A DNA stretch of 64,000 bases from Nanobdellota archaeon (GTDB lineage Archaea; Aenigmatarchaeota; Aenigmatarchaeia; Aenigmatarchaeales; Aenigmatarchaeaceae), in NCBI GenBank assembly GCA_018901755.1, contig JAHIDZ010000021.1:2467-66466 (forward strand), given 5' to 3'. The notes under the pieces were generated by a model that was not told the origin of the DNA, ran no database searches, and saw nothing but the letters and a program-made list of their open reading frames with translations. Below, piece by piece: positions 30,408-50,687 of this stretch. The position numbers and the translations under genes were made by a program. The first letter of the stretch is position 1. Each line of letters opens with the position of its first letter.

Positions 30408-30411
30408 TAAG

Positions 30412-32223
30412 ATGTGTGGCATAGCTGGTTATTTTGGAGCGAATGATAAACAGCTGCTCAGGAACATGGCTAAAGCAATAAAACATCGCGGACCTGATGA
30501 TGGGGGATTCTTTTTTCATAAGAATGTTGGTTTAGCTAACAGGCGTCTTTCAATCATAGATATTAAAAGTGGCCATCAACCAATTGTTTGGAAAAATTTA
30601 TCAATTGTTTACAACGGTGAAATTTACAATTATCAAGACATACGAGCTGAACTAGAAGACAAATATGATTTTAAAACAAATTCTGATACAGAAGTCATAC
30701 TTTATGCATATCAAGAGTGGGGCCCAGATTGTGTCAAAAAATTTAACGGAATGTGGTCTTTTGCCATCTATGATAAAATAAAAAACATGTTATTTATCTC
30801 ACGGGACCGCCTTGGAATAAAACCATTATACTATTATTACGATGGAGAAAAAATTGTATTTGCTTCTGAAATTAAAGCTATTCTAGAAGATAAAACTATA
30901 CCAAGAATACCTAATGATGAAATTGTCTACGGGTATCTGCTTTACAATCTTCATGATCATTCTGAAAAAACATTTTTCAAAGGAATAAAATCTCTTCCAC
31001 CAGGCCATTCAATGGTTGTCAGAAAAAACAGCATGAAAATTATGAAATATTGGGGTATTGAAATTAAATCTATTAAAGATTCTGATGAAAAATATGCAAT
31101 AAACACGAGAGAATTGTTAGAAGATTCTATTAAACTGAGATTAATTAGTGAAGTTCCTATCGGAAGTTGCTTAAGTGGGGGTATTGATTCTACATCAATC
31201 GTATCACTAATAAACAATGTCATTAAATCTGGTGGCAATTATGATAATACAATTGGAGAACGACAAAAAACCTTCTCAGCTGTTTACAAAAATAATAAAA
31301 TAGATGAATCGAAGCATATTGAAAATGTCATATCATATACTGGAGCTGAAAAGAATTTCACTTATCCAACTGCAAAGGGGCTGTGGAAAGACATAAGAAA
31401 AATCGTATATCATCAAGATGAACCATTCATCGGACCGAGTATTTACGCGCAATGGGAAGTCATGAAACTTGCAAGCAAAAAAGTTAAAGTTGTTTTAGAT
31501 GGCCAAGGAAGTGACGAAATATTTGCAGGATACATGCCATATCACATTATACACATAATGAATCTAGTTAAGCACGGAAGAATATTGCGTGCTGGTCAAG
31601 AATTCATAAAAAGCGCTGATTTTATTGTTCCGTTTATTTTCAATAAAAGTGTTTTCAAAAAAAGAGATAAAACAATCAAAAGCATGTTAAATAATATTTT
31701 TGTTGATAAATATAACAATATTATTCAAAGCAAATGGAAAGTAAAAAATCTCAATGATTTGTTGTATTTAGAAGTTACAAAACAGAGTATTCCAAAACTA
31801 CTAAGATATGAAGATAGAAACTCTATGGCTTTCTCTGTAGAAGCTCGTGTTCCATTCCTAGACTACAGACTCGTTGAATATGCTTTTTCTATGCCAGAAA
31901 AACAAAAAATAAGAAAAGGTTGGACAAAATACGTCTTGAGAAATGCAATGAAAGGAATAATACCAGAGTCCGTTAGAAAAAGAAGAGATAAAATTGGATT
32001 TGATGTTCCTGAAAAAATATGGTTATTAGAATTAAAAAAACCAGTGAAACAATTATTTGCATCAAAATCATTCAGTGAAATAAAATACTTCGATCAAATT
32101 GAAGTATTAAAAATGTTTGATAAATTCTGTAAAGGAAAATTAGATGATAATTATGCAAGGGTATTCTGGAGAATTATAATACTAGCCATATGGCACGATA
32201 CGTTCATTAGAAAACTCACTTAG
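30412..32223 (+). CDS. Asparagine synthase (glutamine-hydrolysing) family amidotransferase
   Basis: The Ntn glutaminase needs Cys directly after the initiator Met, and MCGIAGYFG begins at ATG 30412. The track start at 30400 is a TTG extension. The PP-loop is SGGIDSTS. Confidence 0.85.
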   Translation: MCGIAGYFGANDKQLLRNMAKAIKHRGPDDGGFFFHKNVGLANRRLSIIDIKSGHQPIVWKNLSIVYNGEIYNYQDIRAELEDKYDFKTNSDTEVILYAYQEWGPDCVKKFNGMWSFAIYDKIKNMLFISRDRLGIKPLYYYYDGEKIVFASEIKAILEDKTIPRIPNDEIVYGYLLYNLHDHSEKTFFKGIKSLPPGHSMVVRKNSMKIMKYWGIEIKSIKDSDEKYAINTRELLEDSIKLRLISEVPIGSCLSGGIDSTSIVSLINNVIKSGGNYDNTIGERQKTFSAVYKNNKIDESKHIENVISYTGAEKNFTYPTAKGLWKDIRKIVYHQDEPFIGPSIYAQWEVMKLASKKVKVVLDGQGSDEIFAGYMPYHIIHIMNLVKHGRILRAGQEFIKSADFIVPFIFNKSVFKKRDKTIKSMLNNIFVDKYNNIIQSKWKVKNLNDLLYLEVTKQSIPKLLRYEDRNSMAFSVEARVPFLDYRLVEYAFSMPEKQKIRKGWTKYVLRNAMKGIIPESVRKRRDKIGFDVPEKIWLLELKKPVKQLFASKSFSEIKYFDQIEVLKMFDKFCKGKLDDNYARVFWRIIILAIWHDTFIRKLT

Positions 32224-34156
32224 CATTTTGTATTTCATCCAGTGCTGATAGATTTTCGATTGAAGATGTGTCACCTAAGTCATTTCCAAGATATTTTGCC
32301 CTAACAGCTCTACGAACTATTTTTGCGCTTCTTGTTTTAGGAAGCTGAGAAACAAATTTGACATCTTGTGGTTTAAGTGATTTGCCCATTACATTAATTA
32401 CTTGCTGTTTAAGTTCATCGCGAAGAGTTTCACTGGCAGAAAACTTTGGCTTTAATACAACAAAGCAAATGACATCTTCACCTTTTATTTCATGTGGCAC
32501 TCCTATTGCAGCTGCTTCTGATACACTTGGATTTTCAAGCAGCGCTGCTTCTATTTCAGCTGGACCAACTCTTCTTCCTGATATTTTTATTACATCATCA
32601 CTTCGTCCGTGCAAAAACCAAAATCCATCTTGATCAATGCTTGCCCAATCTCCGTGATACCAAATGCCTGGCCATCTAGACCAATATGTTTCAATATATC
32701 TCTGTTTATCTTTCCAAAAACCACGAGTCATTGATGGTGCCGGTTTCTTGGCAACAAGATGGCCCATCTGATCTCTAACTGGTTTTCCATTATCATCAAA
32801 GACATCAATGTCCATTGCAAGACCAGGTCCTCTAAGTGTTGTTGGCTTAAGTTCTGTTATTGGTAATGGCGAAAGGAAACATCCAACTATTTCTGTTCCA
32901 CCTGAGATGTTAATAATTGGAAGTTTTGATTTACCAACATTATTGAAAAACCAATTCCAAGATTCTGGATCCCATGGTTCACCAGTTGAACCAAGCAATC
33001 TTAAACTAGATAAATCATGATTAGCCACCCACTCATCGCCATATTTAATCAATAGACGAATTGCTGTTGGTGAAATTCCAAGCGTAGTTATTTTATGTTT
33101 GTCTATAAGTTCCCAGAGTTTGTCTGGTTTTGGATAATCTGGCGCACCATCAAATATAAAAATTGCTCCACCAAATGTCTGCACACCTATTATCATCCAC
33201 GGCCCCATCATCCAACCAATATCAGTTAACCAGAAGAAAACATCATTCTCTTTAACATCAAAAGCATAACCAAGTTCTTTTGCCAACTGTGATTGTGAAC
33301 CACCATGTGTGTGTACAGTTCCTTTTGGCTTTCCTGTTGTTCCTGATGAAAAAAGTATCATACAATTATCTTCGCTATCCATAACTTCTGTTTTACACTC
33401 GTCCGATTGATCTTTTACAAAATCATGCCACCAGATATCTCTTCCTTCTGTCCACGGTACATCCGCGCCAGTTCTTTTGTAAACAATAACATGTTCAAGA
33501 CTTGGAACTTTATCCAATCCTCCGTCTGCTTCTTTTTTTATCTGAATCGTCTTTCCTCTTCTGTATGTTCCATCTGCAGTTAGTAACACTTTAACACCGG
33601 CAATTTCTAATCTAGATGCTAGCGCAATAGAACCAAATCCGCTAAATATAGGAACAGCTATTGCTCCAATTTTAAGTATTGCTAAAAATCCTGCAACAAT
33701 TTCAGGAACCATTGGCATGTAAATCCCAACAGTGTCTCCTTTTCCAACACCAATGTTTCTAAGTGCGTTTGCTAATTTGTTTGTTTCTTTATACAATTCT
33801 AGATATGTTAATTTTTTACTATCTCCTTTCTCATCTTCCCATATGCAAGCGATATTATTTTTCTTAGATCCTTCAGCATGTCTATCAAGACAATTATGAA
33901 TTATGTTTAATTTACCACCGATAAACCATTTTGTCCATTCTATACCAGCAGAATCATCAAGAACTTTTGTATACGGTTTATACCATTCTATGTTAAGATC
34001 TTTCATGGCAGCATCCCAAAACCATTCAATATCATCTATAGAACGCTTTATCAAATCATCATAATCTTTTATTCCATGTTTATCCATAAATCGTTTAATA
34101 TTAGCTTCTTCGATATATTTTCCATAAGGTTTCCATACGATATCCATATTATTCAT
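32216..34156 (-). CDS. AMP-forming acetyl/acyl-CoA synthetase family ligase
   Basis: About 646 aa from ATG 34156 (the track start at 34171 is TTG). AMP-binding motif: FSSGTTGKPKG. Also FWLTDIGWMMGPW, the C-terminal ISGRRVGPAEIE and the lysine motif PKTRSAKIVRR. Confidence 0.8.
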   Translation of the reverse strand: MNNMDIVWKPYGKYIEEANIKRFMDKHGIKDYDDLIKRSIDDIEWFWDAAMKDLNIEWYKPYTKVLDDSAGIEWTKWFIGGKLNIIHNCLDRHAEGSKKNNIACIWEDEKGDSKKLTYLELYKETNKLANALRNIGVGKGDTVGIYMPMVPEIVAGFLAILKIGAIAVPIFSGFGSIALASRLEIAGVKVLLTADGTYRRGKTIQIKKEADGGLDKVPSLEHVIVYKRTGADVPWTEGRDIWWHDFVKDQSDECKTEVMDSEDNCMILFSSGTTGKPKGTVHTHGGSQSQLAKELGYAFDVKENDVFFWLTDIGWMMGPWMIIGVQTFGGAIFIFDGAPDYPKPDKLWELIDKHKITTLGISPTAIRLLIKYGDEWVANHDLSSLRLLGSTGEPWDPESWNWFFNNVGKSKLPIINISGGTEIVGCFLSPLPITELKPTTLRGPGLAMDIDVFDDNGKPVRDQMGHLVAKKPAPSMTRGFWKDKQRYIETYWSRWPGIWYHGDWASIDQDGFWFLHGRSDDVIKISGRRVGPAEIEAALLENPSVSEAAAIGVPHEIKGEDVICFVVLKPKFSASETLRDELKQQVINVMGKSLKPQDVKFVSQLPKTRSAKIVRRAVRAKYLGNDLGDTSSIENLSALDEIQNAK

Positions 34157-35084
34157 CACCTGCAATTTCAATTAACATCTTAGCCTGCTCCAATACTCTC
34201 AATCCGTCTTCTGCACTAACCAAAGGTGTTTTATCGTTCTCAACGCAATCAATAAAATGTTCTAACTCTGTTAACAATGGTTCTTTTTTCTGAACAGATA
34301 TTTTTGTTACTGTACTTTCAATTCCATCACTCTGATAAAAATTAATTTCTTGTGTTATGTAATCAGCTGTATACATTCCTTTCTCGCCTATTATCTGAAT
34401 ATTTCTTATCTTGATTGGTGTCAACCAATTTACATTCATGTTGCATATAGCACCATTACTTAATTTTAACACTGCGCATATCATATCTTCATGATTCTTA
34501 TGTATTTTCTTCGCTATTTCGGCATGAGCTCTAGTAATCTCAGCACCTGTTAAATATCTTATTATATCAAGATCATGAACTGCTAAATCTATAACAACGC
34601 CAACATCTCCTATTCTCTGCGGAAATGGACCCGATCTATTAACATCAATCTTAAAGATTTCCCCAAGTTCATTATTCTCAAGTCTCTTCTTTAATTCAAT
34701 AACAACTGGATTAAATCGTTCAATGTGACCTATCATTATCTTTATTCCATTGTTTCTTGCAAACTCTACCAGCTTCTTACCATCTTCTATTGTTGATGTG
34801 ATTGGTTTCTCTAAAAGAATATTTATTTTTTTATCAATTACATCGAAAGCGACCTGCTTATGATATTCTGTCGGAACTACAACAGATACAATATCAAGTT
34901 TTTCTTTACTTATCATTTCTTTATAATCAGTATAATATTTACATCCGTATTTTTCTGAAATCTCTTTAGCAAGAGCTTCATTCATATCAGATACTGCAAC
35001 CAAATTAACTTTGTCTGATTCGCTGTATATTCTTGCGTGATTTTTCCCCATTGAACCAATGCCGATTACAGCAACATTCAACAT
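34149..35084 (-). CDS. Gfo/Idh/MocA-family sugar-nucleotide oxidoreductase (WbpB/GnnA-like), copy 1
   Basis: [20 protein letters not shown] is the Rossmann start, with the EKP motif in LLEKPI. Confidence 0.75.
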   Translation of the reverse strand: MLNVAVIGIGSMGKNHARIYSESDKVNLVAVSDMNEALAKEISEKYGCKYYTDYKEMISKEKLDIVSVVVPTEYHKQVAFDVIDKKINILLEKPITSTIEDGKKLVEFARNNGIKIMIGHIERFNPVVIELKKRLENNELGEIFKIDVNRSGPFPQRIGDVGVVIDLAVHDLDIIRYLTGAEITRAHAEIAKKIHKNHEDMICAVLKLSNGAICNMNVNWLTPIKIRNIQIIGEKGMYTADYITQEINFYQSDGIESTVTKISVQKKEPLLTELEHFIDCVENDKTPLVSAEDGLRVLEQAKMLIEIAGDE

Positions 35085-36169
35085 TTGAAAACCTCTTCTA
35101 TTGTAGATACAATCTCATCTATATTTTCTTTAGAAACTCCAGGATGAACTGGAAGTGATAAAACTTGATTTGCTATTTTCTCTGCGACTGGAAAATCTCT
35201 TTCCTTATACCTAAATTTAGAAAATAATGGAAATAAATGAAGTGGTTTTGGATAAAATATTCCAAATCCAATTCCTTTTTTCTTGAATGCTTCAATTATT
35301 TTATCTCTATGGTCGGTTTTAATAGTATATTGATGAAAAACATGTTTTACATTAGGAACCACGTATGGTGTTGTTATTTCTTTAATGTTTTTTAACTTCT
35401 CTGTAAACATCTTCGCATTCTCTATTCTTTTTTCTGTAAATTCTTCTATTCTACCAATTTGTGCCAGAGCAATTGCTGCATGCAAATCACTCATTCTGTA
35501 ATTATATCCTAAACTATGATAGTTGTATCTAGCTTCCTCAGATTGTCCATGGTGTCTAAACTTTTTTAAATTGTCAGCATAGTCGGCATTATTTGTCGTA
35601 ACCATCCCACCTTCACCACATGTCATATTCTTTGTTGCATAAAGTGAGAAAGCTGATATGTCACCAAGTGCTCCTGATTTTATTCCATCAAAAGAAGCAT
35701 TAACAGACTGGCATGCATCCTCTACAATTTTTAAATTATGCTTATCAGCAATTTCCTTTATTGGTTTGTAATCATATGGTTGCCCAAATAAACTAACCGG
35801 CATTATAACTTTTGTCTTTTCAGTTATCTTTTCTTCTATTTTTTTAGGATCAATATTAAAAGTATTTTCATCTATGTCAACAAAAACTGGAATTGCGCCG
35901 AGCATCAAAATAGGACTGGCCGTTGCAATGAATGTAAATGGTGTTGTTATTACTTCGTCTCCTAGCCCAACTCCACATGCATTAAGGGCTGCATGTATTG
36001 CAGCTGTACCAGAATTAACAGCAACTGCATATTTCACATTACATAAAGATGCAAATTTTTCCTCAAGTAATTTTACTTTAGATCCTTGTGCAAGCATGCC
36101 TGAGTTTAAAACTTCATTAACTAGTTGTTTTTCGTTTTCACCTATCAACGGTTTTGCTATTGGTATCAT
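35078..36169 (-). CDS. DegT/DnrJ/EryC1/StrS-family sugar aminotransferase (WbpE/GnnB-like), copy 1
   Basis: 363 aa. [13 protein letters not shown].., with the PLP-lysine region [18 protein letters not shown]. Confidence 0.85.
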
Positions 36170-36726
36170 TTTATTACCTCATCATATGAAACATTACATA
36201 TACTACATTTTCCTTCTGTTATTTTCTTTCCGCATTTACAAGCATGCCCTACTGGTCGTGCAGGATTACCAACCACAATACTATAATCAGAAACATCTTT
36301 TGTAACCACCGAACCTGCCCCAACAAGAGCCCATTTTCCAATTGTTATTCCTGGTAGAATTATTGAATTTGCACCAATTGATGCGCCAGTTTTTACAATG
36401 GTTTGATGTATTTCCCAGTCAGAACCGCTCTTTAGTGTTCCGTCTGGATTAACTGCTCTCGGATATTTATCATTTGAAAAACATACATGTGGACCAATGA
36501 AAACACCATCCTCAATTATATTGCCATTATAGAGAGAAACATTATTCTGTATTTTAACATTTTTTCCAATCTTAACTCCGATATCAATATAAACATTTTT
36601 ACTTATGATGCAATTTTCGCCAATCTCTGTATTTTCTCTTACCTGAGCAAGATTCCAAATTTTAACATTTTCACCTATTTTTGCTTTCGGTGAAACTTCC
36701 GCAGTTTGGTGTATAAATATTGCCAT
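36166..36726 (-). CDS. Hexapeptide-repeat (left-handed beta-helix) sugar N-acetyltransferase (WbpD-like) with C-terminal Cys4 ribbon, copy 1
   Basis: Hexapeptide repeats plus [41 protein letters not shown]. The C-terminal ribbon is [18 protein letters not shown] 36726 is preferred over the GTG at 36735. Confidence 0.8.
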
Positions 36727-36814
36727 AACTAGCACCCCTTCTTCTTAGTAATCATAAGATATATTCACGAAATATACTTTTTAAATGTTCAGTACCAGAA
36801 GTCCATAATAGAAA

Positions 36815-38083
36815 TTAGTAAGATTCTTCAAGATATGTTGCTACCTGATCTACAAACACTTTTCCAGCATCTCTTTCAAGATGTGGTGATTTGGTAACCA
36901 TTGGTATTATTTCACGCGAATAATTTATAGCTCTTTTCAATATTGGATTGATTATACTAGTTTCATCCATATTAGGCACCAGATAACCAAGTGAATCATT
37001 CGAATATCCATTCAAAAATGTTACGTTGTAAGGAGATCTGCTTCTAATATCTTTATCCAACTGTGAAAATAATTCAAACGGATGGAACACTAAACAAGTC
37101 TCATCCCCAATATGTAAGAAATTTACATCTCTCTGTAAAACGTCACTAAACGCATCTTCTGCAATACCTTTTATTGTATCTTTTTTCCATTCTTCTAACA
37201 ATCTTTCAAATGCTGGGTTATTTACTGGTAATTTTTGTAAAGTATCATCAACGAATTCTTTAGTTGGAATGATAGCTGGTAATTCAATCTTTATTTTCCC
37301 AAGTCTCATATCTGGGGTATCTATCATTGATGTTGGTGCTGCTAGTATCTTTTCTGCAATAACATGTCCATGTTCTTTAGCTTTCCTGAACACTCCCTGA
37401 TCCAAAATATTAACATCTCCACAGGAACCCTGTAAAAACATTGGTATACATCCGACTTTGTCTGAAAGATAACGATTAGCATATCCTGGAAATCCTGCCG
37501 AAACCCAAAAACTTTCAGGGCCTTGATCTATTTTTGGTGCATTAACTGGATGTGCTGCATAATTATAAATTATTGATTTAATTTTATTCGACTCGGTTTG
37601 CGCCAATATTGCATATATATTATTATTTGTTTCTCCATCAAGAAATGCTCTGTTTTCATTTATTTCTGCTTTTGTTATTGCTGTAACTATATCGACTGCT
37701 TCTACATCTTGATGAGCATAAAGCGCCGCATTAAAAATCTGTTTCTTTAAAAATTCTCGATATTCACTATCCAGCGCACCAACTCCTCTCATATCACATC
37801 CAGCTGGTGCAGAATGTGTGTGCGATGCGCATAAATTTATTTGATCATATCCTGTTTCTTCTAGAAGTTCTCTTGAACATTCATCTATAAACGATCTATC
37901 AAGATTACCAATGTCACAAGATATAGTTAATGCCTTTCTTCCAGAATAATTAAATTCAACTGCCGAAGCATAAAGATCGTCTGCAACTCCTTTTGCTTTT
38001 CGGTCTAAATAAAACCCGTATCCCCAAAGATCTATACCCATGGCTCTTGGTGTTATTTTAGTTCTAGCTACTCCAATTTTCAT
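36815..38083 (-). CDS. Neutral/alkaline ceramidase-like N-terminal-domain amidohydrolase
   Basis: From the internal ATG 38083 (MKIGVARTKITPRAMG..DLYASAVEF..LTISCDIG..CASHTHSAPAG). The 70-codon upstream extension in the ORF track has no such similarity and would overlap the divergent neighbour. Confidence 0.6.
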   Translation of the reverse strand: MKIGVARTKITPRAMGIDLWGYGFYLDRKAKGVADDLYASAVEFNYSGRKALTISCDIGNLDRSFIDECSRELLEETGYDQINLCASHTHSAPAGCDMRGVGALDSEYREFLKKQIFNAALYAHQDVEAVDIVTAITKAEINENRAFLDGETNNNIYAILAQTESNKIKSIIYNYAAHPVNAPKIDQGPESFWVSAGFPGYANRYLSDKVGCIPMFLQGSCGDVNILDQGVFRKAKEHGHVIAEKILAAPTSMIDTPDMRLGKIKIELPAIIPTKEFVDDTLQKLPVNNPAFERLLEEWKKDTIKGIAEDAFSDVLQRDVNFLHIGDETCLVFHPFELFSQLDKDIRSRSPYNVTFLNGYSNDSLGYLVPNMDETSIINPILKRAINYSREIIPMVTKSPHLERDAGKVFVDQVATYLEESY

Positions 38084-38103
38084 AACTATAATTAGAATAG
38101 AAA

Positions 38104-38177
38104 AACTTAAATACCGTATGAATTTCGGGTCTTTTAGAAATGCGAAGTAGAACCATGATTCATTATACTTAAATACC
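38104..38177. promoter_or_regulatory. Divergent promoter region with two identical TATA-like 11-mers
   Basis: ACTTAAATACC occurs at 38104-38114 (about 26 nt from the minus-strand ATG 38083) and at 38167-38177 (about 50 nt from the plus-strand ATG 38226). Assignment as TATA boxes is inference. Confidence 0.3.
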
Positions 38178-38225
38178 TCTCTACTTTTAATAACTTGTAT
38201 AGAGAAACATGAATAGTGATTTAAT

Positions 38226-39035
38226 ATGAATAATGAGCACATTAAGAAAATCAAAGAACTTTTTGGAGAATGTAAAAATTCTTCTGATGGCAACGATATT
38301 TATGATAATGTAATTATTGGGAAAAATGTTAAAATGGGCAAAAATAACCTAATTCTGCCTGGGACCATAATTGTCGGTGATGTTGAAATTGGAAACAATA
38401 ATGTTATAGGACCACATGTAGCAATCGGCACACCCCCACAGCACACAAAATATTACCAAGAAGGCATAGATACTGACTGTAAAATAAAAATTGGTGACAA
38501 AAACGTACTAAGAGAATTTGTTACAGTTCATTCGCCGACGAGCAGAGACACAATAATTGGAAACGAGTGTTTCTTTATGGCAAATTCTCATGTATCGCAC
38601 GACACTCAGATAGGCAATAATGTTGTTTTAGGAAACTCGTGTGCTATTGGTGGACATAGTACAATAATGAATAATGTCTTTGTTGGACTAAACTCTGCAG
38701 TACATCAATTTGCAACAATAGGAGCACATGCAATGATAGGTATGAACTCCACTATTACGAAAGATGTCCCACCTTTTCTAGTATTTCATAATAAATATAA
38801 TTGTTATAAATTAAATGAAGTTGGAATGCTTAGAAATAATTTCAATAAAAATGATTTAAAAATTATATATGATTTCTATAATGCAAATGGAATATCATCT
38901 GACAAACTTGAAAAGAATTTAGAAAGTCTTAATGCTTCTGGGTTTAGCAAAATTGCAAATACTATAAAAGACTTTGGAGTCGCTCGGAAAAGAGAATTAT
39001 ATGAAATAAATATTAAATATAAACCATCTGAATAG
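38226..39035 (+). CDS. LpxA-family acyltransferase (UDP-GlcNAc O/N-acyltransferase-like, left-handed beta-helix)
   Basis: IKIGDKNVLREFVTVHSPT..IIGNECFFMANSHVSHDTQIGNNVVLGNSCAIGGHSTI..SAVHQFATIGAHAMIGMNSTITKDVPPF..KLNEVGMLRNNF aligns with E. coli LpxA. The E. coli string is VEIGDRNRIRESVTIHRGT..AHIAHDC..LAGHV..AVHQFCIIGAHVMVGG..QDVPPY..NIEGLKRRGF. The alignment includes the catalytic-His region. Confidence 0.75.
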   Translation: MNNEHIKKIKELFGECKNSSDGNDIYDNVIIGKNVKMGKNNLILPGTIIVGDVEIGNNNVIGPHVAIGTPPQHTKYYQEGIDTDCKIKIGDKNVLREFVTVHSPTSRDTIIGNECFFMANSHVSHDTQIGNNVVLGNSCAIGGHSTIMNNVFVGLNSAVHQFATIGAHAMIGMNSTITKDVPPFLVFHNKYNCYKLNEVGMLRNNFNKNDLKIIYDFYNANGISSDKLEKNLESLNASGFSKIANTIKDFGVARKRELYEINIKYKPSE

Positions 39036-39045
39036 TTGTGATAAA

Positions 39046-39756
39046 ATGGAAGAATCTGTATTAATAACAGGTGCAAATGGACTGATTGGTTACAATATAG
39101 CATTAAAATTTTTAGAACGTGGAGACCAAGTATTTCTAAGTGATTATTATAACAAAAATAACAGAATAGACGAATTATGTAAAAAATATCCAACACAAGC
39201 ACATAAAATAGAAGCTGACATTAGAAATGCAGAAGATGTCAAAAAAATGATGGAAACAATTGAAACAAAATGCTCCGGAATAGATGTTCTAATTAATAAC
39301 GCTGGTATTGTTAAAGATAAAACATTCATAAAAATGACATATGACGAATGGAATGATGTTATTCAAACGAATCTTTATGGTACAATGTTTATCACTAAAG
39401 GTGTTTTACAGAAGATGATAGATAAAAAATATGGAAGTATAGTGAGTATCGCTTCAATTGTTGGAAAAAATGGAGCCTATGGTCAAACTAATTATGCTGC
39501 ATCTAAAGCTGCACTAATCGGATTTACAAAATCTTTAGCAAAAGAAGTTTCAAAATATAACATAAGAGTAAATGCTGTAACTCCTGGATATGTTGAAACT
39601 GACATGACTGCTAAAATTCCAGAAGATGTAAAGGCAAAGATAGTTGCAAGCTTACCAGCCGGACGCATGGCAAAACCCGAAGAAATGGCTGAAGCTGTCT
39701 TTAATTTAGCAAATGAAAAAGACACCACCGGCGAAGTCAGAGATATTTGCCAGTGA
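39046..39756 (+). CDS. FabG/PhaB-like short-chain 3-oxoacyl reductase (SDR)
   Basis: LINNAGIVKD..EWNDVIQTNLYG..SIASIVGKNGAYGQTNYAASKAALIGFTKSLAKEV..IRVNAVTPGYVETDMT closely parallels FabG. The C-terminus is a few residues shorter than in typical FabG. Confidence 0.8.
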   Translation: MEESVLITGANGLIGYNIALKFLERGDQVFLSDYYNKNNRIDELCKKYPTQAHKIEADIRNAEDVKKMMETIETKCSGIDVLINNAGIVKDKTFIKMTYDEWNDVIQTNLYGTMFITKGVLQKMIDKKYGSIVSIASIVGKNGAYGQTNYAASKAALIGFTKSLAKEVSKYNIRVNAVTPGYVETDMTAKIPEDVKAKIVASLPAGRMAKPEEMAEAVFNLANEKDTTGEVRDICQ

Positions 39757-39887: not shown

Positions 39888-41384
39888 ATGAATTTAGATG
39901 AACAAGTGTTGCTCAAAAAAATCAGTAAAGGTGCAATAATAGTATTTGCTGGATTCTTAATTGCATACACATTAGAATATTCCTGCAGAATTATTATGGC
40001 AAGATGGCTTGGTCCGTCTGGTTACGGAATAATAGCATTATGTCTGTCATTTATTGGAATAATTTCTACTCTAACAATGCTATCATTTGAAGATACAATA
40101 ACTCGATATATTTCATACCTGAAGGATGAAGGAAAAAGAAAGTCGCTGCTTAATTTTATATTTAAAATCTCAACTGTATTAAGTGCTATTGCTTCAGTAT
40201 TAGTGTATTACTTTGCTGAGAATATTTCAATGTGGTTTAACAATTCAGAACTTGCAATTCCTTTAAAAATATTTTCCATAAGCATACCTTTTTATGCGCT
40301 CTTGAAAATATCGGTTTCTTGCTTCAGAGGACTACAGCTTGCTAAATACAAATTATATTTCTCAGATATATTCTTCTCTGTTTCCAGAGTTGTGCTCGTA
40401 GTATTTTTCTTATTATTTGGTTACGGAATTGTCGGCGCTGCATTTGGATATGTAATTGCAATAATACTATCTGGAACATTAGCATTTCTTTTCTTGGAAA
40501 GAAAACTGATATCAATCAGAACAAAACAACTTCTAAGTAAAACTGATATGGTAGACATGTTTAGATTTTCATGGCCAATAATGCTGATATCATTATTTAA
40601 TATAAGTTATGCAAATTTAGGAACAATTTTTCTCGGGATATTCAAAATGTCAAGCGATGTTGGGATATATAACGCCTCTCTTCCAACTGCAGGAATTTTA
40701 TCTTTTGTGTTAACATCATTTTTATTTTTATTTATGCCAGTTATTGCTGAATTATATGCAAAGAAAAATATGACAGCCATCTCAAGTCTTTTCGATACAA
40801 TTACAAGATTAACATTCGTGTTAACTTTTCCGCTTTTCTTGATATTTTTAGTATTTCCAGAGAAAATAATCAGCATTATGTTTGGTGATGCTTACGTCGG
40901 TGCCGCGCTTTCTTTAGCCATATTGTCTATTGGTATATTCATTAGTGCTATAACAGGACCGGCAGGAAGCATCTTTATTGCTATCGGAAAAACCAAACTA
41001 GCTCTATTTTATTTTTTGATCATAACAATATCAAATATAATTTTGAGCATTGCTTTAATACCAAGCTATGGTGTTACAGGCGCGGCAATGGCGGCATCAA
41101 TAGCAATAATATTAGGAAATGTTTGGTGTCTTATAGCACTTGGAAGATTTGTTAAAATCAAACCGTTCACAACATATAATATAAAATATATATTTGCCGG
41201 ATTGACATCAATGATTCTAACATATGGAATATATAAATTATTATCACAGTCCAGTATCATAGTATTTGGCCTAATACTAATATTTTATCTGATGGTATAT
41301 CTTATTTTATTGCGTATTACTAAATCATTTACAGAAGAAGACATTTTCTTATTAAATGCAGTTAAAAGAAAAATTCTCTCTTAA
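39888..41384 (+). CDS. Wzx-like oligosaccharide flippase (MOP superfamily), copy 1
   Basis: 498 aa with about 12-14 hydrophobic helices, in a glycan cluster. Confidence 0.7.
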   Translation: MNLDEQVLLKKISKGAIIVFAGFLIAYTLEYSCRIIMARWLGPSGYGIIALCLSFIGIISTLTMLSFEDTITRYISYLKDEGKRKSLLNFIFKISTVLSAIASVLVYYFAENISMWFNNSELAIPLKIFSISIPFYALLKISVSCFRGLQLAKYKLYFSDIFFSVSRVVLVVFFLLFGYGIVGAAFGYVIAIILSGTLAFLFLERKLISIRTKQLLSKTDMVDMFRFSWPIMLISLFNISYANLGTIFLGIFKMSSDVGIYNASLPTAGILSFVLTSFLFLFMPVIAELYAKKNMTAISSLFDTITRLTFVLTFPLFLIFLVFPEKIISIMFGDAYVGAALSLAILSIGIFISAITGPAGSIFIAIGKTKLALFYFLIITISNIILSIALIPSYGVTGAAMAASIAIILGNVWCLIALGRFVKIKPFTTYNIKYIFAGLTSMILTYGIYKLLSQSSIIVFGLILIFYLMVYLILLRITKSFTEEDIFLLNAVKRKILS

Positions 41385-41541
41385 TAATAGCAAAAGATTA
41401 CGCAAATTTGCGATATTAAAATGCTTCCGTACAATGAACTATCAGAAAGATTCAGATTCATAAAATAATCAAAAATAAAGAATTATAGTTCATAAGCTTT
41501 TTAAAGCCTTTTCTAACAATAAGTATTATGGTTTGATTATT

Positions 41542-42036
41542 ATGGCAGGAATAAAAAATGTTAAAATGGGTAAAAGCGTCCGTATAGGCGAGAGTTCCGA
41601 TATATACGGGTGTGAAATCGGAGACAACTGTGTAATCGGAGGTTTAGTTTACATTGAACCTGATGTAAAAATAGGTAAAAATTGTAAAATCAAAGCCGGT
41701 ACTTTCATACCACAATATATTACTATAGAAGATGATGTTTTTATTGGACCGAATGTTACATTCACAAATGATAAGCTTCCTAGAGCAGCTAATCCTGATG
41801 GAAGTTTAAAGGGAAATGATAATTGGACCCCACTAAAAACTCTTGTCAAAAGAGGTGCGACAATTGGTGCAGGCTGTGTGATTCTTCCTGGTATAACAAT
41901 AGGAAAATGCGCAATAGTTGGAGCTGGTGCTGTTGTTACAAAAGATGTTCCTGATTATAAAATGGTATATGGAAATCCGGCAAGAATAGTTTCTGATGTT
42001 CCTGATAAAGAAAAATATATTAAGGGTGATCAATAG
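41542..42036 (+). CDS. Hexapeptide-repeat sugar N-acetyltransferase (WbpD-like), copy 2
   Basis: [41 protein letters not shown] is clearly paralogous to 36166-36726. ATG 41542 is preferred over the TTG at 41533. Confidence 0.8.
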   Translation: MAGIKNVKMGKSVRIGESSDIYGCEIGDNCVIGGLVYIEPDVKIGKNCKIKAGTFIPQYITIEDDVFIGPNVTFTNDKLPRAANPDGSLKGNDNWTPLKTLVKRGATIGAGCVILPGITIGKCAIVGAGAVVTKDVPDYKMVYGNPARIVSDVPDKEKYIKGDQ

Positions 42037-43103
42037 TGTCAATCCCTTTAGCTAAGCCATCATACACACAGGAAATGGAAGACGCAGCGATTAATGCGAT
42101 GAGAAATGAAAAATGGTGTCTTGGCGAAAGTGTTTTTAAATTTGAGGAGGAATTCGCCAAATACTGTGGTGTAAAATATGCTGTTGCTGTAAGTTCAGGA
42201 ACAGACGCACTTACTCTAGCATTGATAAGTATGGGTGTTAAGAAATCTGACAATATTATGACATCTCCTAATTCATTCATAGCAAGTGCTAATGCAATTG
42301 TGCATAGTGGCGCTACACCAGTGTTCTCAGATATAAGAGCTGAAACTGGAAACATTGACCCAGATAAAATTAGTGCAAAAAATCTTCGTGGTATAATACC
42401 TGTTCATATTTACGGAAACATGTGTGACATGGATAAAATAATGGCCCTGAAAGAAAATGGCATGTTTGTTATAGAGGATGCTTGCCAAGCACATGGCGCA
42501 GATTATAAAGGCAAGAAAGCTGGTTCGATAGGAGATCTTGGGTGTTTTTCATTTTATCCTTCAAAAAATATGACCGTCTATGGAGATGGTGGTATGATAA
42601 CTTCCAATAATGAAGAGATAATAGAATATCTAAAATCTCTAAGAGATTGTGGAAGAGTTTCAAGATATGAACACGATAAATTTGGATTCACTTCAAGGAT
42701 GAATACAATAAATGCAGCTATTGGGCGAGTTCAATTAAAATATCTTGACGAATGGAATCAGAAAAGGAGAGCTGCTGCAAAAATATATCAGAAACTTTTA
42801 CCTGAAGAAATTTTATTGAAACCAGAAAATGGTTCTAATCCAATTTATCATATGTTTGTAATTAAAAGTGATAAAAGAGATGATATAATTAAAAATTTAG
42901 ATAAAAATAACATAGGAAATGGTATACATTATCCTATCCCAATACATCTTCAGCCCATTTACAAAAAAACATTTGGATTTAAAGATGGGCTTTTCCCTGT
43001 AACTGAGAAATTTTCTAAGCAAATTATGTCATTGCCAATGTACCCAGAAATAACAGAAGATCAGATAAAAATGGTTGTCGAAAAAGTGCTGGAGGTATTA
43101 TAA
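42036..43103 (+). CDS. DegT/DnrJ/EryC1/StrS-family sugar aminotransferase, copy 2
   Basis: 355 aa. The GTG start overlaps the upstream stop (TAGTG). The PLP-lysine region is CFSFYPSKNMTVYGDGGMI. Confidence 0.85.
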   Translation: MSIPLAKPSYTQEMEDAAINAMRNEKWCLGESVFKFEEEFAKYCGVKYAVAVSSGTDALTLALISMGVKKSDNIMTSPNSFIASANAIVHSGATPVFSDIRAETGNIDPDKISAKNLRGIIPVHIYGNMCDMDKIMALKENGMFVIEDACQAHGADYKGKKAGSIGDLGCFSFYPSKNMTVYGDGGMITSNNEEIIEYLKSLRDCGRVSRYEHDKFGFTSRMNTINAAIGRVQLKYLDEWNQKRRAAAKIYQKLLPEEILLKPENGSNPIYHMFVIKSDKRDDIIKNLDKNNIGNGIHYPIPIHLQPIYKKTFGFKDGLFPVTEKFSKQIMSLPMYPEITEDQIKMVVEKVLEVL

Positions 43104-48187: not shown

Positions 48188-48192
48188 AGTAA

Positions 48193-50686: not shown

Positions 50687-50687
50687 T

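What the first reader, a model, noticed from the sequence alone, without database searches (positions are those of the whole stretch)
32216..39756. Bacterial lipid-A-style acylation kit in an archaeon: LpxA-like, FabG-like, ceramidase-like amidase and acyl-CoA synthetase next to a 3-amino-sugar cassette
Seen: the 269-aa protein at 38226 aligns along its length with LpxA, including the SHVSHD catalytic-His region and AVHQF..IGAH.MIG. It is followed 10 nt later by a FabG/PhaB-like 3-oxoacyl reductase. Divergently upstream lies a neutral-ceramidase-like N-acyl amidohydrolase. Beyond that are the WbpD/E/B-like cassette and an AMP-forming acyl/acetyl-CoA synthetase. No ACP, LpxC or LpxD gene is present in the window. 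Established: in some bacteria a Gfo/Idh/MocA oxidoreductase plus DegT-type aminotransferase (GnnA/GnnB) make UDP-GlcNAc3N, which LpxA then N-acylates with a 3-hydroxyacyl chain. Archaea lack lipid A. Inference: this is a horizontally acquired module that attaches a (3-hydroxy)acyl group to a 3-amino sugar of the archaeal glycan or of a glycolipid anchor. In this model the ligase and reductase supply the acyl donor and the amidase remodels it. I regard this as the most unexpected biochemical prediction in the window.
Basis: partly seen in the sequence, partly recalled or inferred. Interest (0 to 1): 0.7.

Follow-up and report, generated by a model that had tools for sequence, protein, structure and literature searches.

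The report
LpxA-like sugar N-acyltransferase module, DPANN archaeon
A small archaeon carries, inside its surface-sugar gene island, a relative of the bacterial lipid A enzyme LpxA that most likely puts a short (hydroxy)acyl group on a 3-amino sugar, so it decorates a glycan rather than making an archaeal lipid A.

Summary
It is not contamination: composition and codon usage match the rest of the window, archaeal DPANN markers flank it, and a related archaeal contig carries the same module at the same chromosomal site.

The "lipid-A-style" reading is only partly supported. The protein belongs to a separate LpxA-like clade. That clade is never linked to fabZ. It sits next to Gfo/Idh/MocA plus DegT genes, including in lipid-A-less actinomycetes. 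It has bulky residues (Leu/Met155, Met173) where canonical LpxA keeps Gly/Ala in the acyl-chain groove, which predicts a chain of about C6 or shorter. One clade member with a solved structure, Pcryo_0615, is described in its PDB entry title as the N-acetyltransferase that makes 2,3-diacetamido-2,3-dideoxy-glucuronic acid.

The window protein differs from Pcryo_0615. It keeps LpxA's three β-hydroxyl-binding residues, and a FabG-like reductase abuts it.

Best reading: ACP-independent 3-N-(short 3-hydroxyacyl)ation of UDP-GlcNAc3N(A). The donor would come from an ACS-like ligase that lacks the acetate-pocket Trp, plus the reductase. The main rival is plain N-acetylation. The role of the ceramidase-fold amidase is unresolved.

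The parts
38226..39035 (+). LpxA-like acyltransferase (269 aa). Predicted to be a 3-N-acyltransferase acting on UDP-GlcNAc3N(A).
   Evidence: NF003657 201 bits and TIGR01852 185 bits, both below cut-off; PF13720 above cut-off. The model has pLDDT 92.5, and the top 30 PDB fold matches are all LpxA. His125/Asp126/Gly143, Gln72/His102/His122, Leu155 and Met173 are present. It belongs to a clade linked to Gfo+DegT and never to fabZ.
39046..39756 (+). FabG/PhaB-like short-chain dehydrogenase/reductase (236 aa). Predicted 3-oxoacyl-CoA reductase that makes the (R)-3-hydroxyacyl donor.
   Evidence: NF009466 226.8 bits (cutoff 222) and TIGR01830 248 bits. The best PDB matches are FabG 2p68 and the (3R)-hydroxyacyl-CoA dehydrogenase 2et6. 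An Asp after strand beta2 (LSD) suggests NAD(H) use. It starts 10 nt after the LpxA-like gene. SDR genes also abut the LpxA-like gene in L003 and L004.
38084..38225 (.). 142-bp AT-rich divergent intergenic region between the two operons.
   Evidence: The sigma-70 scan is uninformative for an archaeon.
36815..38083 (-). Neutral-ceramidase-fold Zn amidohydrolase, catalytic domain only (422 aa), with no signal peptide. Its role is unresolved. Candidates are a sugar-nucleotide de-N-acylase (an LpxC-like step) or acyl recycling.
   Evidence: PF04734 28.1 bits, below the cutoff of 32.1. The model has pLDDT 90.9; Foldseek matches only 2zws, 2zxc and 4wgk (E 1e-24 to 3e-26). His178, Glu337, Tyr367 and Tyr388 are invariant and His88/His90 nearly invariant. 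Only two close relatives exist in 5.8 billion proteins, and one of them lies in the same module of L001.
36166..36735 (-). WbpD-like hexapeptide acetyltransferase (189 aa). It is accessory, because it is absent from the orthologous module in L001.
   Evidence: PF00132 84.5 bits; TIGR03570 104.9 bits, below the cutoff of 160.8. It is 56% identical to the second copy at 41533-42036. L001 has no such gene.
35078..36169 (-). DegT/WbpE-type PLP aminotransferase (363 aa). Predicted to make the 3-amino sugar nucleotide.
   Evidence: PF01041 415.6 bits. It is 73% identical to the L001 orthologue.
34149..35084 (-). Gfo/Idh/MocA oxidoreductase (311 aa). Predicted UDP-GlcNAc(A) 3-dehydrogenase.
   Evidence: NF040723 (archaeal UDP-GlcNAc 3-dehydrogenase) 350.6 bits, below the cutoff of 450. 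It is 72% identical to the L001 orthologue.
32216..34171 (-). ACS-related AMP-forming acyl-CoA ligase (651 aa) with a non-acetate pocket. Predicted supplier of a short acyl-CoA.
   Evidence: NF001208 673.6 bits (cutoff 657); TIGR02188 663 bits, below 725. The acetate-pocket residues Val310/Thr311/Val386/Trp414 of S. enterica Acs are Met/Met/Thr/Gly here. The L001 orthologue (81% identity) has the same residues. It belongs to a broad subfamily with this pocket. It overlaps the Gfo gene by 23 nt.
39888..41384 (+). Wzx/MOP-type flippase in the same transcription direction (context).
   Evidence: PF01943 110.5 bits and PF13440 83.4 bits.
41533..44062 (+). Second hexapeptide/DegT/Gfo cassette, distinct from the first (context, and a possible alternative source of the acceptor sugar).
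   Evidence: Gfo1 vs Gfo2 27% identity, DegT1 vs DegT2 39%, WbpD1 vs WbpD2 56%.

Best explanation
This is a glycan-decoration module of a DPANN archaeon, not a lipid A pathway.

Proposed steps:
1. Gfo1 and DegT1 convert UDP-GlcNAc (or its uronic acid) into the 3-amino sugar nucleotide UDP-GlcNAc3N(A).
2. The LpxA-like enzyme acylates that 3-amino group with LpxA chemistry: a His125/Asp126 base and a Gly143 oxyanion hole.
3. Its acyl groove is blocked one and two coils earlier than in E. coli LpxA (Leu155, Met173), so only a short chain of about C6 or less fits.
4. It keeps the three residues that bind the β-hydroxyl of the acyl chain in LpxA, and a FabG-like reductase abuts it. The donor is therefore most likely an (R)-3-hydroxyacyl thioester such as 3-hydroxybutyryl.
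5. The donor is probably a CoA thioester, because no ACP is encoded nearby. The ACS-like ligase with an enlarged pocket activates the acid, and the NAD(H)-type reductase sets the 3-hydroxyl.
6. The modified sugar is then built into a lipid-linked glycan, flipped by Wzx and used by AglB.
7. The cytoplasmic ceramidase-fold amidase removes an N-acyl group from an intermediate. The best guess is the 2-N-acetyl group, by analogy with LpxC.

Shown here: family, fold, conserved residues and gene linkage.
Inferred: the acceptor, the donor, the chain length, and above all the role of the amidase.
For: Family and fold:
- LpxA HMMs at 1.6e-59. The model has pLDDT 92.5, and the best 30 PDB fold matches are all LpxA.

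A separate clade:
- An NJ tree splits short LpxA-like proteins from canonical LpxA.
- In 80 GTDB loci, all 20 genes with Leu/Met155 plus Met/Thr173 have DegT nearby and no fabZ, while fabZ-linked genes have Gly/Ala/Ser155.
- Across 201 sequences, the clade has L48/M13 at position 155 and M61 at 173. Canonical LpxA has G126/A9 at 155 and G88/A27 at 173.

Chain length:
- G173M turns E. coli LpxA from C14 to C10, His191 caps C14, and both residues line the channel (PMC6408518, PMC6286764).
- Position 155 lies exactly one 18-residue coil below 173.

Acceptor:
- The clade member Pcryo_0615 (PDB 8e62) is titled an N-acetyltransferase needed for 2,3-diacetamido-2,3-dideoxy sugar acid.
- In L001, L002, L006 and at least 10 GTDB loci the LpxA-like gene is the only hexapeptide transferase beside Gfo+DegT.

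Hydroxyacyl donor:
- Gln72/His102/His122 correspond to Gln73/His99/His122, which hold the β-OH in LpxA. Pcryo_0615 has Glu/Asp/Tyr at these positions.
- An SDR abuts the gene in the window, L003 and L004.
- Loci with Tyr122 have no SDR (0 of 4). Loci with His122 have one within 3 kb in 13 of 24.

Dedicated donor supply:
- Ten actinomycete loci carry LpxA-like, ACP, SDR, AMP-ligase, LuxE and LuxC in a row.
- The ligase pocket has Trp414 replaced by Gly in both the window and L001.
- The window has no ACP.

Native module:
- L001 has the same genes at the same site next to SecDF/TctA. Composition and codon usage are uniform.

Product precedent:
- GlcNAc3N(3-hydroxybutyryl)A is reported in a bacterial O-antigen (PMC3210612).
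- N-3-hydroxybutanoyl amino sugars are common in capsules (PMC9676051).
Against: - The only characterised clade member uses acetyl, and Leu/Met155 is compatible with acetyl as well as C4-C6. The ruler argument therefore says "short", not "hydroxybutyryl".
- Several clade members with the same Gln/His/His/Asn/Leu/Met signature have no SDR in the sequence available (L002, L006, L009, L012, L015, L091).
- The SDR of the orthologous module in L001 is disrupted.
- The window has three hexapeptide transferases for two Gfo/DegT pairs, so the pairing of enzyme and acceptor is not fixed.
- The substrate of the ligase is unknown.
- Only 64 kb of the genome was searched for ACP.
- The groove geometry was inferred from the 18-residue periodicity, not measured on a trimer model.
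- Nothing tested here assigns a substrate to the amidase.
Confidence: 0.5

Rival explanations
1. The LpxA-like protein is a plain N-acetyltransferase. It would be a functional equivalent of WbpD/Pcryo_0615, making UDP-GlcNAc3NAc(A) from acetyl-CoA. The ACS-like ligase would only supply acyl-CoA or acetyl-CoA to a metabolically poor DPANN cell. The SDR and the amidase would serve other steps of glycan synthesis.
For: - Pcryo_0615 (8e62) shares the Met155/Met173 clade signature and is titled an N-acetyltransferase for the diacetamido sugar acid.
- Many clade members lack any SDR nearby.
- The L001 SDR is broken while its LpxA-like gene is intact.
- The ligase passes the acetate--CoA ligase subfamily cut-off (673.6 vs 657).
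Against: - The window already has two WbpD-type acetyltransferases for its two Gfo/DegT pairs.
- The protein keeps Gln/His/His where Pcryo_0615 has Glu/Asp/Tyr.
- The FabG-like gene is 10 nt away, and SDR genes abut the gene again in L003 and L004.
- All four acetate-pocket residues of the ligase are changed, including Trp414 to Gly.
- The actinomycete cassettes dedicate an ACP, a ligase and a reductase to this kind of transferase.
Confidence: 0.28
2. The enzyme attaches a long (C10-C16) 3-hydroxyacyl chain and makes a lipid-A-like glycolipid anchor in an archaeon. The amidase acts as LpxC and a hexapeptide transferase acts as LpxD.
For: - The LpxA fold, the C-terminal domain and the β-OH triad are retained.
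- The order amidase / acyltransferase / hexapeptide transferase recalls LpxA-LpxC-LpxD.
- DPANN archaea are thought (own knowledge) often to lack their own lipid synthesis.
Against: - Leu155 and Met173 fill the groove where every fabZ-linked LpxA has small residues. Met at 173 alone limits E. coli LpxA to C10 (PMC6408518).
- The window has no LpxB/H/K, KdtA, ACP or fatty acid synthesis genes.
- The genes sit in an AglB/Wzx/glycosyltransferase island.
- The same clade occurs in actinomycete polysaccharide loci.
Confidence: 0.05
3. The enzyme keeps the canonical regiochemistry and O-acylates the 3-OH of UDP-GlcNAc, or of another sugar nucleotide, with a short acyl group. It would act independently of the neighbouring amino-sugar cassette.
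For: - All UDP- and GlcNAc-binding residues of LpxA are kept (Lys75, His144, Gln161, Asn197, Arg203).
- Each of the two Gfo/DegT pairs in the window already has its own WbpD-like partner.
Against: - Linkage of this clade to Gfo+DegT is near universal, and the gene is often the only acyltransferase present.
- The structure-titled relative is an N-acyltransferase.
- Acylating O-3 would block the C-3 oxidation carried out by the neighbouring enzymes.
Confidence: 0.07
4. The segment is bacterial contamination or a chimeric assembly.
For: Most relatives of the LpxA-like protein are bacterial.
Against: - GC content is 0.31-0.36 throughout, with no step at 36.8-39.8 kb.
- Codon-usage distance of the seven genes is 0.190, against 0.190 +/- 0.041 for the rest.
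- Archaeal genes lie on both sides: AglB, an intein-bearing beta-CASP gene, PolB, and a SerRS 67-72% identical to Nanoarchaeota/Pacearchaeota proteins.
- An independent contig (L001, GC 0.31, with a NAC gene) has the same module beside the same SecF/SecD/TctA genes.
Confidence: 0.01

Closest known systems
Pcryo_0615 of Psychrobacter cryohalolentis (PDB 8e62), an LpxA-like N-acetyltransferase of the UDP-2,3-diacetamido-2,3-dideoxy-glucuronic acid pathway
   Same: - Same LpxA-like clade signature (Met/Leu155, Met173, His125/Asp126, His160/Gln161).
- Matched by sequence (80.9 bits) and by fold.
- Its nearest relatives in the set (43-44% identity) include LpxA-like genes beside Gfo + DegT (L024, L038, L047, L013, L021, L026). 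Pcryo_0615's own locus was not examined.
- Presumably the same acceptor, the 3-amino group of UDP-GlcNAc3N(A).
   Different: - Only 34% identical in the beta-helix core.
- Pcryo_0615 is 189 aa and its match ends at window residue 220. The window protein is 269 aa and has the PF13720 domain.
- Pcryo_0615 has Glu73/Asp99/Tyr122, whereas the window protein keeps LpxA's Gln/His/His.
- The window gene is coupled to a FabG-like reductase and an ACS-like ligase.
- Archaeal host.
LpxA of bacteria with GlcN3N lipid A (GnnA/GnnB + LpxA, e.g. Leptospira interrogans LpxA, PDB 3hsq)
   Same: - LpxA fold and catalytic dyad.
- β-hydroxyl-binding triad.
- A Gfo-type oxidoreductase and an aminotransferase make UDP-GlcNAc3N (PMC7663294).
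- The acyl group goes onto the 3-amino group (own knowledge: Sweet et al. 2004; Robins et al. 2009).
   Different: - Scores below the curated LpxA cut-offs.
- No fabZ/lpxD/lpxB/lpxC context.
- The groove is blocked at positions 155 and 173.
- One beta-helix coil is missing at the N-terminus.
- No ACP nearby.
- The product is a glycan sugar, not a lipid.
WbpB/WbpE/WbpD (WlbA/C/B) pathway, and its archaeal counterpart in Methanococcus N-glycan synthesis
   Same: The logic is the same: 3-oxidation, transamination, then N-acylation of UDP-GlcNAc(A) by a left-handed beta-helix transferase (PMC10622841). The window carries two such cassettes.
   Different: The N-acylating enzyme proposed here is of the LpxA type, not the WbpD/WlbB type. 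The module also adds a ligase, a ketoreductase and an amidase.
Dedicated acyl-donor cassettes of bacterial O-antigen loci (own knowledge: Vibrio cholerae O1 rfbKLMNO for the tetronate on perosamine), and the actinomycete LpxA-like/ACP/SDR/ligase/LuxE/LuxC cassette found here
   Same: An AMP-forming ligase plus a reductase, encoded beside the sugar N-acyltransferase, supply an unusual short acyl group.
   Different: The archaeal version has no carrier protein and no LuxC/LuxE. It uses an ACS-type ligase, which implies a CoA thioester, and adds a ceramidase-fold amidase.
Neutral ceramidase (P. aeruginosa 2zws, human 4wgk)
   Same: Catalytic-domain fold (TM 0.70-0.72). Conserved His, His, Arg, His, Glu, Tyr, Tyr pattern, which matches the Zn site as I remember it.
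   Different: - 14-16% identity.
- Below the Pfam cut-off (28.1 vs 32.1 bits).
- No C-terminal Ig-like domain and no signal peptide.
- The host has no known sphingolipids.
- The gene is the first in an amino-sugar operon.

Membership tests
LpxA (acyl-ACP--UDP-GlcNAc O-acyltransferase, lipid A step 1) | Left-handed beta-helix plus the LpxA-type C-terminal helical domain | tested here: met
   PF00132 87.7 bits; PF13720 29.0 bits (cutoff 24.5). The AlphaFold model has pLDDT 92.5, and the top 30 Foldseek PDB hits are LpxA (TM 0.56-0.72).
LpxA (acyl-ACP--UDP-GlcNAc O-acyltransferase, lipid A step 1) | Catalytic His125/Asp126 dyad, Gly143, and β-hydroxyl-binding Gln73/His99/His122 | tested here: met
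   The window protein has His125, Asp126, Gly143, Gln72, His102 and His122. Residue roles are from PMC6286764.
LpxA (acyl-ACP--UDP-GlcNAc O-acyltransferase, lipid A step 1) | Score at or above the curated cut-off of the equivalog models | tested here: not met
   NF003657 201.2 bits vs 226; TIGR01852 184.9 bits vs 231.05.
LpxA (acyl-ACP--UDP-GlcNAc O-acyltransferase, lipid A step 1) | Open acyl-chain groove (small residues at 155 and 173) that accepts C10-C16 | tested here: not met
   Leu155 and Met173. In 138 canonical sequences, position 155 is Gly126/Ala9 and position 173 is Gly88/Ala27/Met13.
LpxA (acyl-ACP--UDP-GlcNAc O-acyltransferase, lipid A step 1) | Lipid A gene context (fabZ, lpxD, lpxB, lpxC) and an ACP donor | tested here: not met
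   None of these genes is in the 64-kb window. Most canonical genes (about 53 of 60) have fabZ about 500 bp upstream, and the clade with Leu/Met155 never does. The rest of the genome could not be searched.
LpxA-like 3-N-acyltransferases of UDP-GlcNAc3N(A) (Pcryo_0615 clade) | Bulky residue at 155 plus Met at 173, with the catalytic dyad kept | tested here: met
LpxA-like 3-N-acyltransferases of UDP-GlcNAc3N(A) (Pcryo_0615 clade) | Linkage to Gfo/Idh/MocA and DegT genes, without fabZ | tested here: met
   In the window, DegT is about 2.1 kb and Gfo about 3.1 kb away in the divergent operon. The same linkage holds in L001, L002, L006, L007 and 20 GTDB loci.
LpxA-like 3-N-acyltransferases of UDP-GlcNAc3N(A) (Pcryo_0615 clade) | Acetyl-CoA as donor | not testable with these tools
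   Pcryo_0615 has Glu/Asp/Tyr at positions 73/99/122 and the window protein has Gln/His/His. This hints at a different donor but does not show it.
Acetyl-CoA synthetase (AcsA) | Curated HMM cut-offs | tested here: inconclusive
   It passes the subfamily model NF001208 (673.6 vs 657) and fails the equivalog TIGR02188 (663.4 vs 724.95).
Acetyl-CoA synthetase (AcsA) | Acetate pocket Val310/Thr311/Val386/Trp414 (S. enterica numbering; residue roles from own knowledge: Ingram-Smith et al. 2006) | tested here: not met
   These positions are Met321/Met322/Thr396/Gly424 in the alignments to 2p20 and 8rpk. The L001 orthologue has the same residues. The subfamily is widespread.
FabG / PhaB 3-oxoacyl reductases | Classical SDR with the Ser-Tyr-Lys triad, and HMM cut-offs | tested here: met
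   PF00106 193 bits; NF009466 226.8 bits vs 222. It is below the equivalog cut-offs of TIGR01830 (248 vs 297.75) and TIGR01829 (225.5 vs 302.1). The YAASK motif is present. The thioester carrier (CoA or ACP) and the cofactor are not testable here.
Neutral/alkaline ceramidase | Catalytic-domain fold and Zn-site residues | tested here: met
   Foldseek gives 2zws at E 2.7e-26 and 4wgk at TM 0.72, with no other significant fold. The His/His/Arg/His/Glu/Tyr/Tyr pattern is conserved. Its correspondence to the Zn site rests on memory.
Neutral/alkaline ceramidase | Pfam gathering score, C-terminal domain, and a sphingolipid substrate | tested here: not met
   PF04734 scores 28.1 vs 32.1 and covers the N-terminal 100 residues only. 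The protein is 422 aa against 630-670 aa for the ceramidases. The substrate is not testable.
WbpB/WbpE/WbpD-type diacetamido-sugar cassette | Gfo/Idh/MocA 3-dehydrogenase, DegT aminotransferase and hexapeptide N-acetyltransferase in one operon | tested here: met
   The three genes are at 34149-36735, with overlaps of 7 and 4 nt. NF040723 350.6 bits (below 450), PF01041 415.6 bits, TIGR03570 104.9 bits (below 160.8). Activities were not tested.

The most novel reading that the evidence does not exclude
The module could be a CoA-based, ACP-free miniature of the first three Raetz-pathway steps, working on a glycan sugar in a DPANN archaeon. The LpxA-like enzyme would put a 3-hydroxyacyl group on N-3 of UDP-GlcNAc3N(A). 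The ceramidase-fold Zn amidase would act as an LpxC analogue of unrelated fold and remove the 2-N-acetyl group. A hexapeptide transferase, or the LpxA-like enzyme again, would then re-acylate N-2. The result would be a di-N-acyl diamino sugar with hydroxyacyl chains. If the chains are longer than the ruler analysis suggests, the product could also serve as a membrane-anchoring glycolipid.
Probability: 0.12. Interest if true: 0.75.

Novelty: new variant of a known kind. Interest (0 to 1): 0.45.

Why it matters
- LpxA is treated as a marker of lipid A and of diderm bacteria. This case, together with 62 other sequences collected here that share its signature, shows a separate LpxA-like clade that works on glycan amino sugars in monoderm actinomycetes and in archaea. 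A simple two-residue signature (positions 155 and 173) plus gene context separates it from true LpxA. That matters for annotation, because several close homologues of this clade are labelled UDP-N-acetylglucosamine acyltransferase in their source records.
- If the donor is a 3-hydroxyacyl-CoA, this would be an LpxA-family enzyme that works without ACP. I found no report of an N-hydroxyacyl amino sugar predicted for an archaeal surface glycan. The glycan would belong to a DPANN organism whose cell-surface chemistry probably governs attachment to its host.
- The ceramidase-fold amidase in a sugar-nucleotide operon is a lead to a new activity for that fold.

Tried and rejected
- The GTDB representative-genome scan with the clade alignment found neither the source genome nor any close archaeal relative. 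The best hit was 47% identical, and the only archaeal hit was a solitary Nitrosopumilaceae gene. It was still useful for the context statistics.
- Literature searches for LpxA in archaea or DPANN, for "LpxA-like/LpxA2", and for 3-hydroxybutyryl-transferring sugar N-acyltransferases found nothing specific. The two "LpxA-like" papers I read refer only to the beta-helix superfamily. The Pcryo_0615 paper is not in the library, so only its PDB title is used.
- The sigma-70 promoter and terminator scan of 36.7-40 kb was at background level and is not suited to an archaeon.
- There are no tRNA or Rfam hits in the window.
- Distant homologues of the amidase (26-27% identity) lie in bacterial loci with sulfatases, a heparinase and Gfo genes. 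This is suggestive of glycan chemistry but too remote to transfer a function.
- The apparently short C-terminus of the SDR is not a frameshift artefact: a double stop follows and no alternative frame continues.
- I considered and dropped the idea that the amidase scavenges acyl groups from external N-acyl compounds for the ligase. Nothing tests it.
- A full-length ML phylogeny with taxon labels was not possible. The NJ tree and identity ranking show that the window subclade is about equally distant (47-48% identity in the core) from other clade members and from fabZ-linked LpxA of Thermodesulfobacteriota. The direction and donor of any horizontal transfer therefore remain open.

Full report
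**1. What is there**

Window 32216-39756 holds seven tightly packed genes in two divergent operons.

Minus strand, in order of transcription:
- a 422-aa amidase (38083-36815)
- a WbpD-like hexapeptide transferase (36735-36166)
- a DegT aminotransferase (36169-35078)
- a Gfo/Idh/MocA oxidoreductase (35084-34149)
- a 651-aa ACS-like ligase (34171-32216)

These genes overlap by 4, 7 and 23 nt.

Plus strand, after a 142-bp spacer:
- the 269-aa LpxA-like gene (38226-39035)
- 10 nt later, a 236-aa short-chain dehydrogenase/reductase (SDR) (39046-39756)
- a Wzx flippase
- a second hexapeptide/DegT/Gfo cassette (41533-44062)

The LpxA-like protein matches the LpxA equivalog models along its length (1.6e-59 and 1.6e-54). 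It scores below their curated cut-offs (201 vs 226 bits; 185 vs 231 bits). It passes the cut-off of the LpxA C-terminal domain PF13720.

Its AlphaFold model (pLDDT 92.5) finds LpxA structures as the 30 best PDB matches.

The amidase reaches only a sub-threshold Pfam ceramidase hit. Its model (pLDDT 90.9, pTM 0.92) matches neutral ceramidases and nothing else (2zws E 2.7e-26; 4wgk TM 0.72). Its family alignment keeps a His, His, Arg, His, Glu, Tyr, Tyr pattern, which fits the ceramidase zinc site as I remember it.

**2. Whose genome, and is the segment native?**

- The window carries AglB/STT3, an intein-bearing beta-CASP gene, a family B polymerase and SecDF.
- Its SerRS is 67-72% identical to proteins named Nanoarchaeota, Pacearchaeota or Nanobdellota. 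The host is therefore a DPANN archaeon.
- Positions 15.7-55.4 kb form one glycan island. It holds glycosyltransferases, two flippases, four B12-radical SAM enzymes, methyltransferases and a FemAB-like gene.
- GC content is flat at 0.31-0.36.
- The seven genes have the same codon usage as the rest of the window (distance 0.190 vs 0.190 +/- 0.041).
- The closest relative of the LpxA-like protein (P0002, 55% identical) lies on an independent metagenome contig, L001. That contig has GC 0.31 and a NAC gene.
- L001 carries the same module: SDR, ACS-like (81% identity), Gfo (72%), DegT (73%), amidase (53%), then the divergent LpxA-like gene. It sits beside the same NAD_binding_8/SecF/SecD/TctA genes.

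**3. A separate LpxA-like clade**

- Beyond five relatives at 39-56% identity, the hits are a sea of LpxA at 32-40%.
- A neighbour-joining tree separates short (200-260 aa) LpxA-like proteins, including the window protein, from canonical LpxA with E. coli.
- I scanned GTDB representative genomes. I then mapped the window's proteins and E. coli FabZ onto the 88 loci collected so far.
- Most canonical genes (about 53 of 60) have fabZ about 500 bp upstream.
- The other kind never has fabZ. It has Gfo and DegT genes within 0.1-3 kb.
- This second kind includes loci in lipid-A-less actinomycetes: Saccharothrix, Kibdelosporangium, Prauserella, Amycolatopsis, Micromonospora, Cellulomonas and a Microthrixaceae MAG.
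- In L001, L002, L006 and at least ten GTDB loci, the LpxA-like gene is the only hexapeptide transferase next to Gfo+DegT. It must then be the enzyme that caps the 3-amino group.

**4. The ruler**

E. coli LpxA binds its acyl chain in a groove. G173M shortens the preferred chain from C14 to C10, and His191 caps C14 (PMC6408518, PMC6286764). These two positions are 18 residues apart, which is one coil of the beta-helix or roughly four carbons. Position 155 is one coil closer to the catalytic His.

| Position | Glycan-linked clade (63 sequences) | Canonical LpxA (138 sequences) |
|---|---|---|
| 155 | Leu48 / Met13 | Gly126 / Ala9 |
| 173 | Met61 | Gly88 / Ala27 / Met13 |

These counts come from 201 aligned sequences. 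Among loci with known context the split is perfect. Twenty of 20 genes with Leu/Met155 have DegT and no fabZ, and no fabZ-linked gene has a bulky residue at 155.

The window protein has Leu155 and Met173. By extrapolation the groove closes at about C6. This is an inference from periodicity, not a measurement. It argues against a lipid-A-type C10-C16 chain.

**5. A characterised relative, and the main rival**

- The fold search and the sequence search both pick up PDB 8e62.
- That entry is Pcryo_0615 of Psychrobacter cryohalolentis. Its title calls it an N-acetyltransferase required to produce the 2,3-diacetamido-2,3-dideoxy sugar acid.
- Its sequence has the clade signature Met155/Met173. Its nearest relatives in my set are clade members (43-44% identity).
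- This supports the predicted acceptor, the 3-amino group of UDP-GlcNAc3NA.
- It also shows that the clade can simply transfer acetyl.

The window protein differs from Pcryo_0615 in ways that matter:
- It is only 34% identical to Pcryo_0615.
- It keeps the C-terminal domain.
- It keeps Gln72/His102/His122. These are the counterparts of Gln73/His99/His122, which hydrogen-bond the β-hydroxyl of the acyl chain in LpxA. Pcryo_0615 has Glu/Asp/Tyr there.
- The four loci with Tyr122 have no SDR. Thirteen of the 24 with His122 have one within 3 kb. The numbers are small, so this is a hint only.

**6. Donor supply**

- A FabG-like SDR abuts the LpxA-like gene in the window (10 nt). SDR genes do the same in L003 (4-nt overlap) and L004 (4-nt overlap).
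- L001 has an SDR 5 kb away, but it is disrupted.
- The window SDR has an Asp after strand beta2. Besides FabG, it resembles the (3R)-hydroxyacyl-CoA dehydrogenase 2et6.
- In ten actinomycete genomes the LpxA-like gene is followed by a conserved 80-aa carrier protein (PF00550 above cut-off), an SDR, an AMP-binding ligase, LuxE and LuxC. That is a dedicated acyl-donor line.
- The archaeal module has no carrier protein. None is found in 64 kb or in L001.
- Instead it has an ACS-type ligase in which the acetate-pocket residues Val310/Thr311/Val386/Trp414 are Met/Met/Thr/Gly.
- The L001 orthologue has identical pocket residues.
- This pocket is shared by a broad subfamily: 73 of 108 full-length representatives among the best 150 hits have Gly at the Trp414 position.
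- Loss of this Trp opens the pocket to longer acids (own knowledge).

**7. Best explanation**

Gfo1/DegT1 make UDP-GlcNAc3N(A). The ligase and the SDR make a short (R)-3-hydroxyacyl-CoA, with 3-hydroxybutyryl the simplest case. The LpxA-like enzyme transfers it to N-3. The sugar then enters a Wzx/AglB-dependent glycan.

The product has a bacterial precedent. GlcNAc3N(3-hydroxybutyryl)A is reported in an O-antigen (PMC3210612), and N-3-hydroxybutanoyl amino sugars are common in capsules (PMC9676051).

My confidence levels:
- about 0.75 that the enzyme N-acylates a 3-amino sugar nucleotide
- about 0.5 for the whole statement, including the hydroxyacyl donor
- 0.28 for the plain N-acetyltransferase rival

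The amidase is the weakest point. It is cytoplasmic and looks catalytically intact. It has only two close relatives among 5.8 billion proteins, and one of them lies in the same module of L001. An LpxC-like 2-N-deacetylation is attractive but untested.

**8. Comparison and novelty**

The module works like the Wbp/Wlb diacetamido-sugar pathway, with an LpxA-type enzyme in the WbpD position, as in Psychrobacter. It recalls the GnnA/GnnB/LpxA route to GlcN3N lipid A (PMC7663294).

It fails three LpxA membership tests: the curated score, the open groove, and the lipid A context. It should not be annotated as LpxA.

The following are new:
- the archaeal host
- the ACP-free ligase + reductase arrangement
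- the retention of the β-hydroxyl triad in a short-groove enzyme
- the ceramidase-fold amidase

I rate it a new variant of a known kind, of moderate interest.

Noticed in passing
L013, L016, L020, L021, L041, L045, L047, L069, L079, L084 (e.g. L084 7735-15433): Ten actinomycete genomes share a conserved cassette. DegT and Gfo lie nearby, adjacent and divergent in L084. Then come LpxA-like, an 80-aa carrier protein, SDR, AMP-binding ligase, LuxE and LuxC, followed in L084 by an LPG_synthase_TM protein. This looks like an uncharacterised pathway for an unusual N-acyl diamino sugar in lipid-A-less bacteria.
   Followed up: partly
window 12501-15062 (+): A beta-CASP/metallo-beta-lactamase RNase (aCPSF-like) gene is interrupted by an intein with a LAGLIDADG homing endonuclease domain.
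   Followed up: no
window 19204-20631, 26275-27720, 46772-48196, 48193-49650 (all -): Four B12-binding radical SAM genes lie inside one glycan island, which suggests unusual C-methylation or other radical chemistry on the glycan.
   Followed up: no
window 30400-32223 (+): An AsnB-type glutamine amidotransferase converges on the ACS-like gene and overlaps it by 8 nt. It may form an amide or amidine on the diamino uronic acid, as WbpG/AglXYZ-type enzymes do.
   Followed up: no
window 21374-23407 (-) and 20594-21343 (-): A FemAB-like/GNAT transferase and a DUF362 Fe-S protein lie in the glycan island, next to an ORF with a NUMOD3 (homing-endonuclease-type) motif.
   Followed up: no
window 49650-51530 (-): A PAPS-reductase-domain protein and a sulfatase-like protein lie in the island, hinting at sulfur or sulfate chemistry on the glycan.
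   Followed up: no
L037 9953-10705: A Nitrosopumilaceae MAG has a solitary LpxA-like gene (41% identity, Gln155/Met173, PF13720 present). It sits beside IS66 and DDE transposases and has no sugar genes within 10 kb.
   Followed up: partly
L011, L014, L019, L022, L029-L033, L036 and others: Many canonical fabZ-lpxA loci of Thermodesulfobacteriota, Acidobacteriota, Nitrospirota and relatives have a Gfo/Idh/MocA gene 0.7-1.9 kb downstream of lpxA. This gene is a possible GnnA.
   Followed up: no
L001 2867-3534: The SDR of the orthologous archaeal module is broken: about 35 residues are missing and the frame changes. The LpxA-like, ligase and amidase genes of L001 are intact.
   Followed up: partly
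window 32216-34171 (-) and representatives P0263-P0313: The ACS-like ligase belongs to a large, apparently unnamed subfamily. Its pocket reads M/M/T/S/G where acetyl-CoA synthetases read I/T/V/W/W.
   Followed up: partly
L089 8001-9245; L090 8001-9320: Distant (26-27% identity) small ceramidase-fold proteins of bacteria sit among sulfatases, a heparinase-like lyase and Gfo/Idh/MocA genes. This suggests a glycan-related role for this short form of the fold.
   Followed up: no
window 5174-6556 (-): A Schlafen AlbA_2 / HATPase_c_4 / winged-helix protein lies upstream of the island.
   Followed up: no
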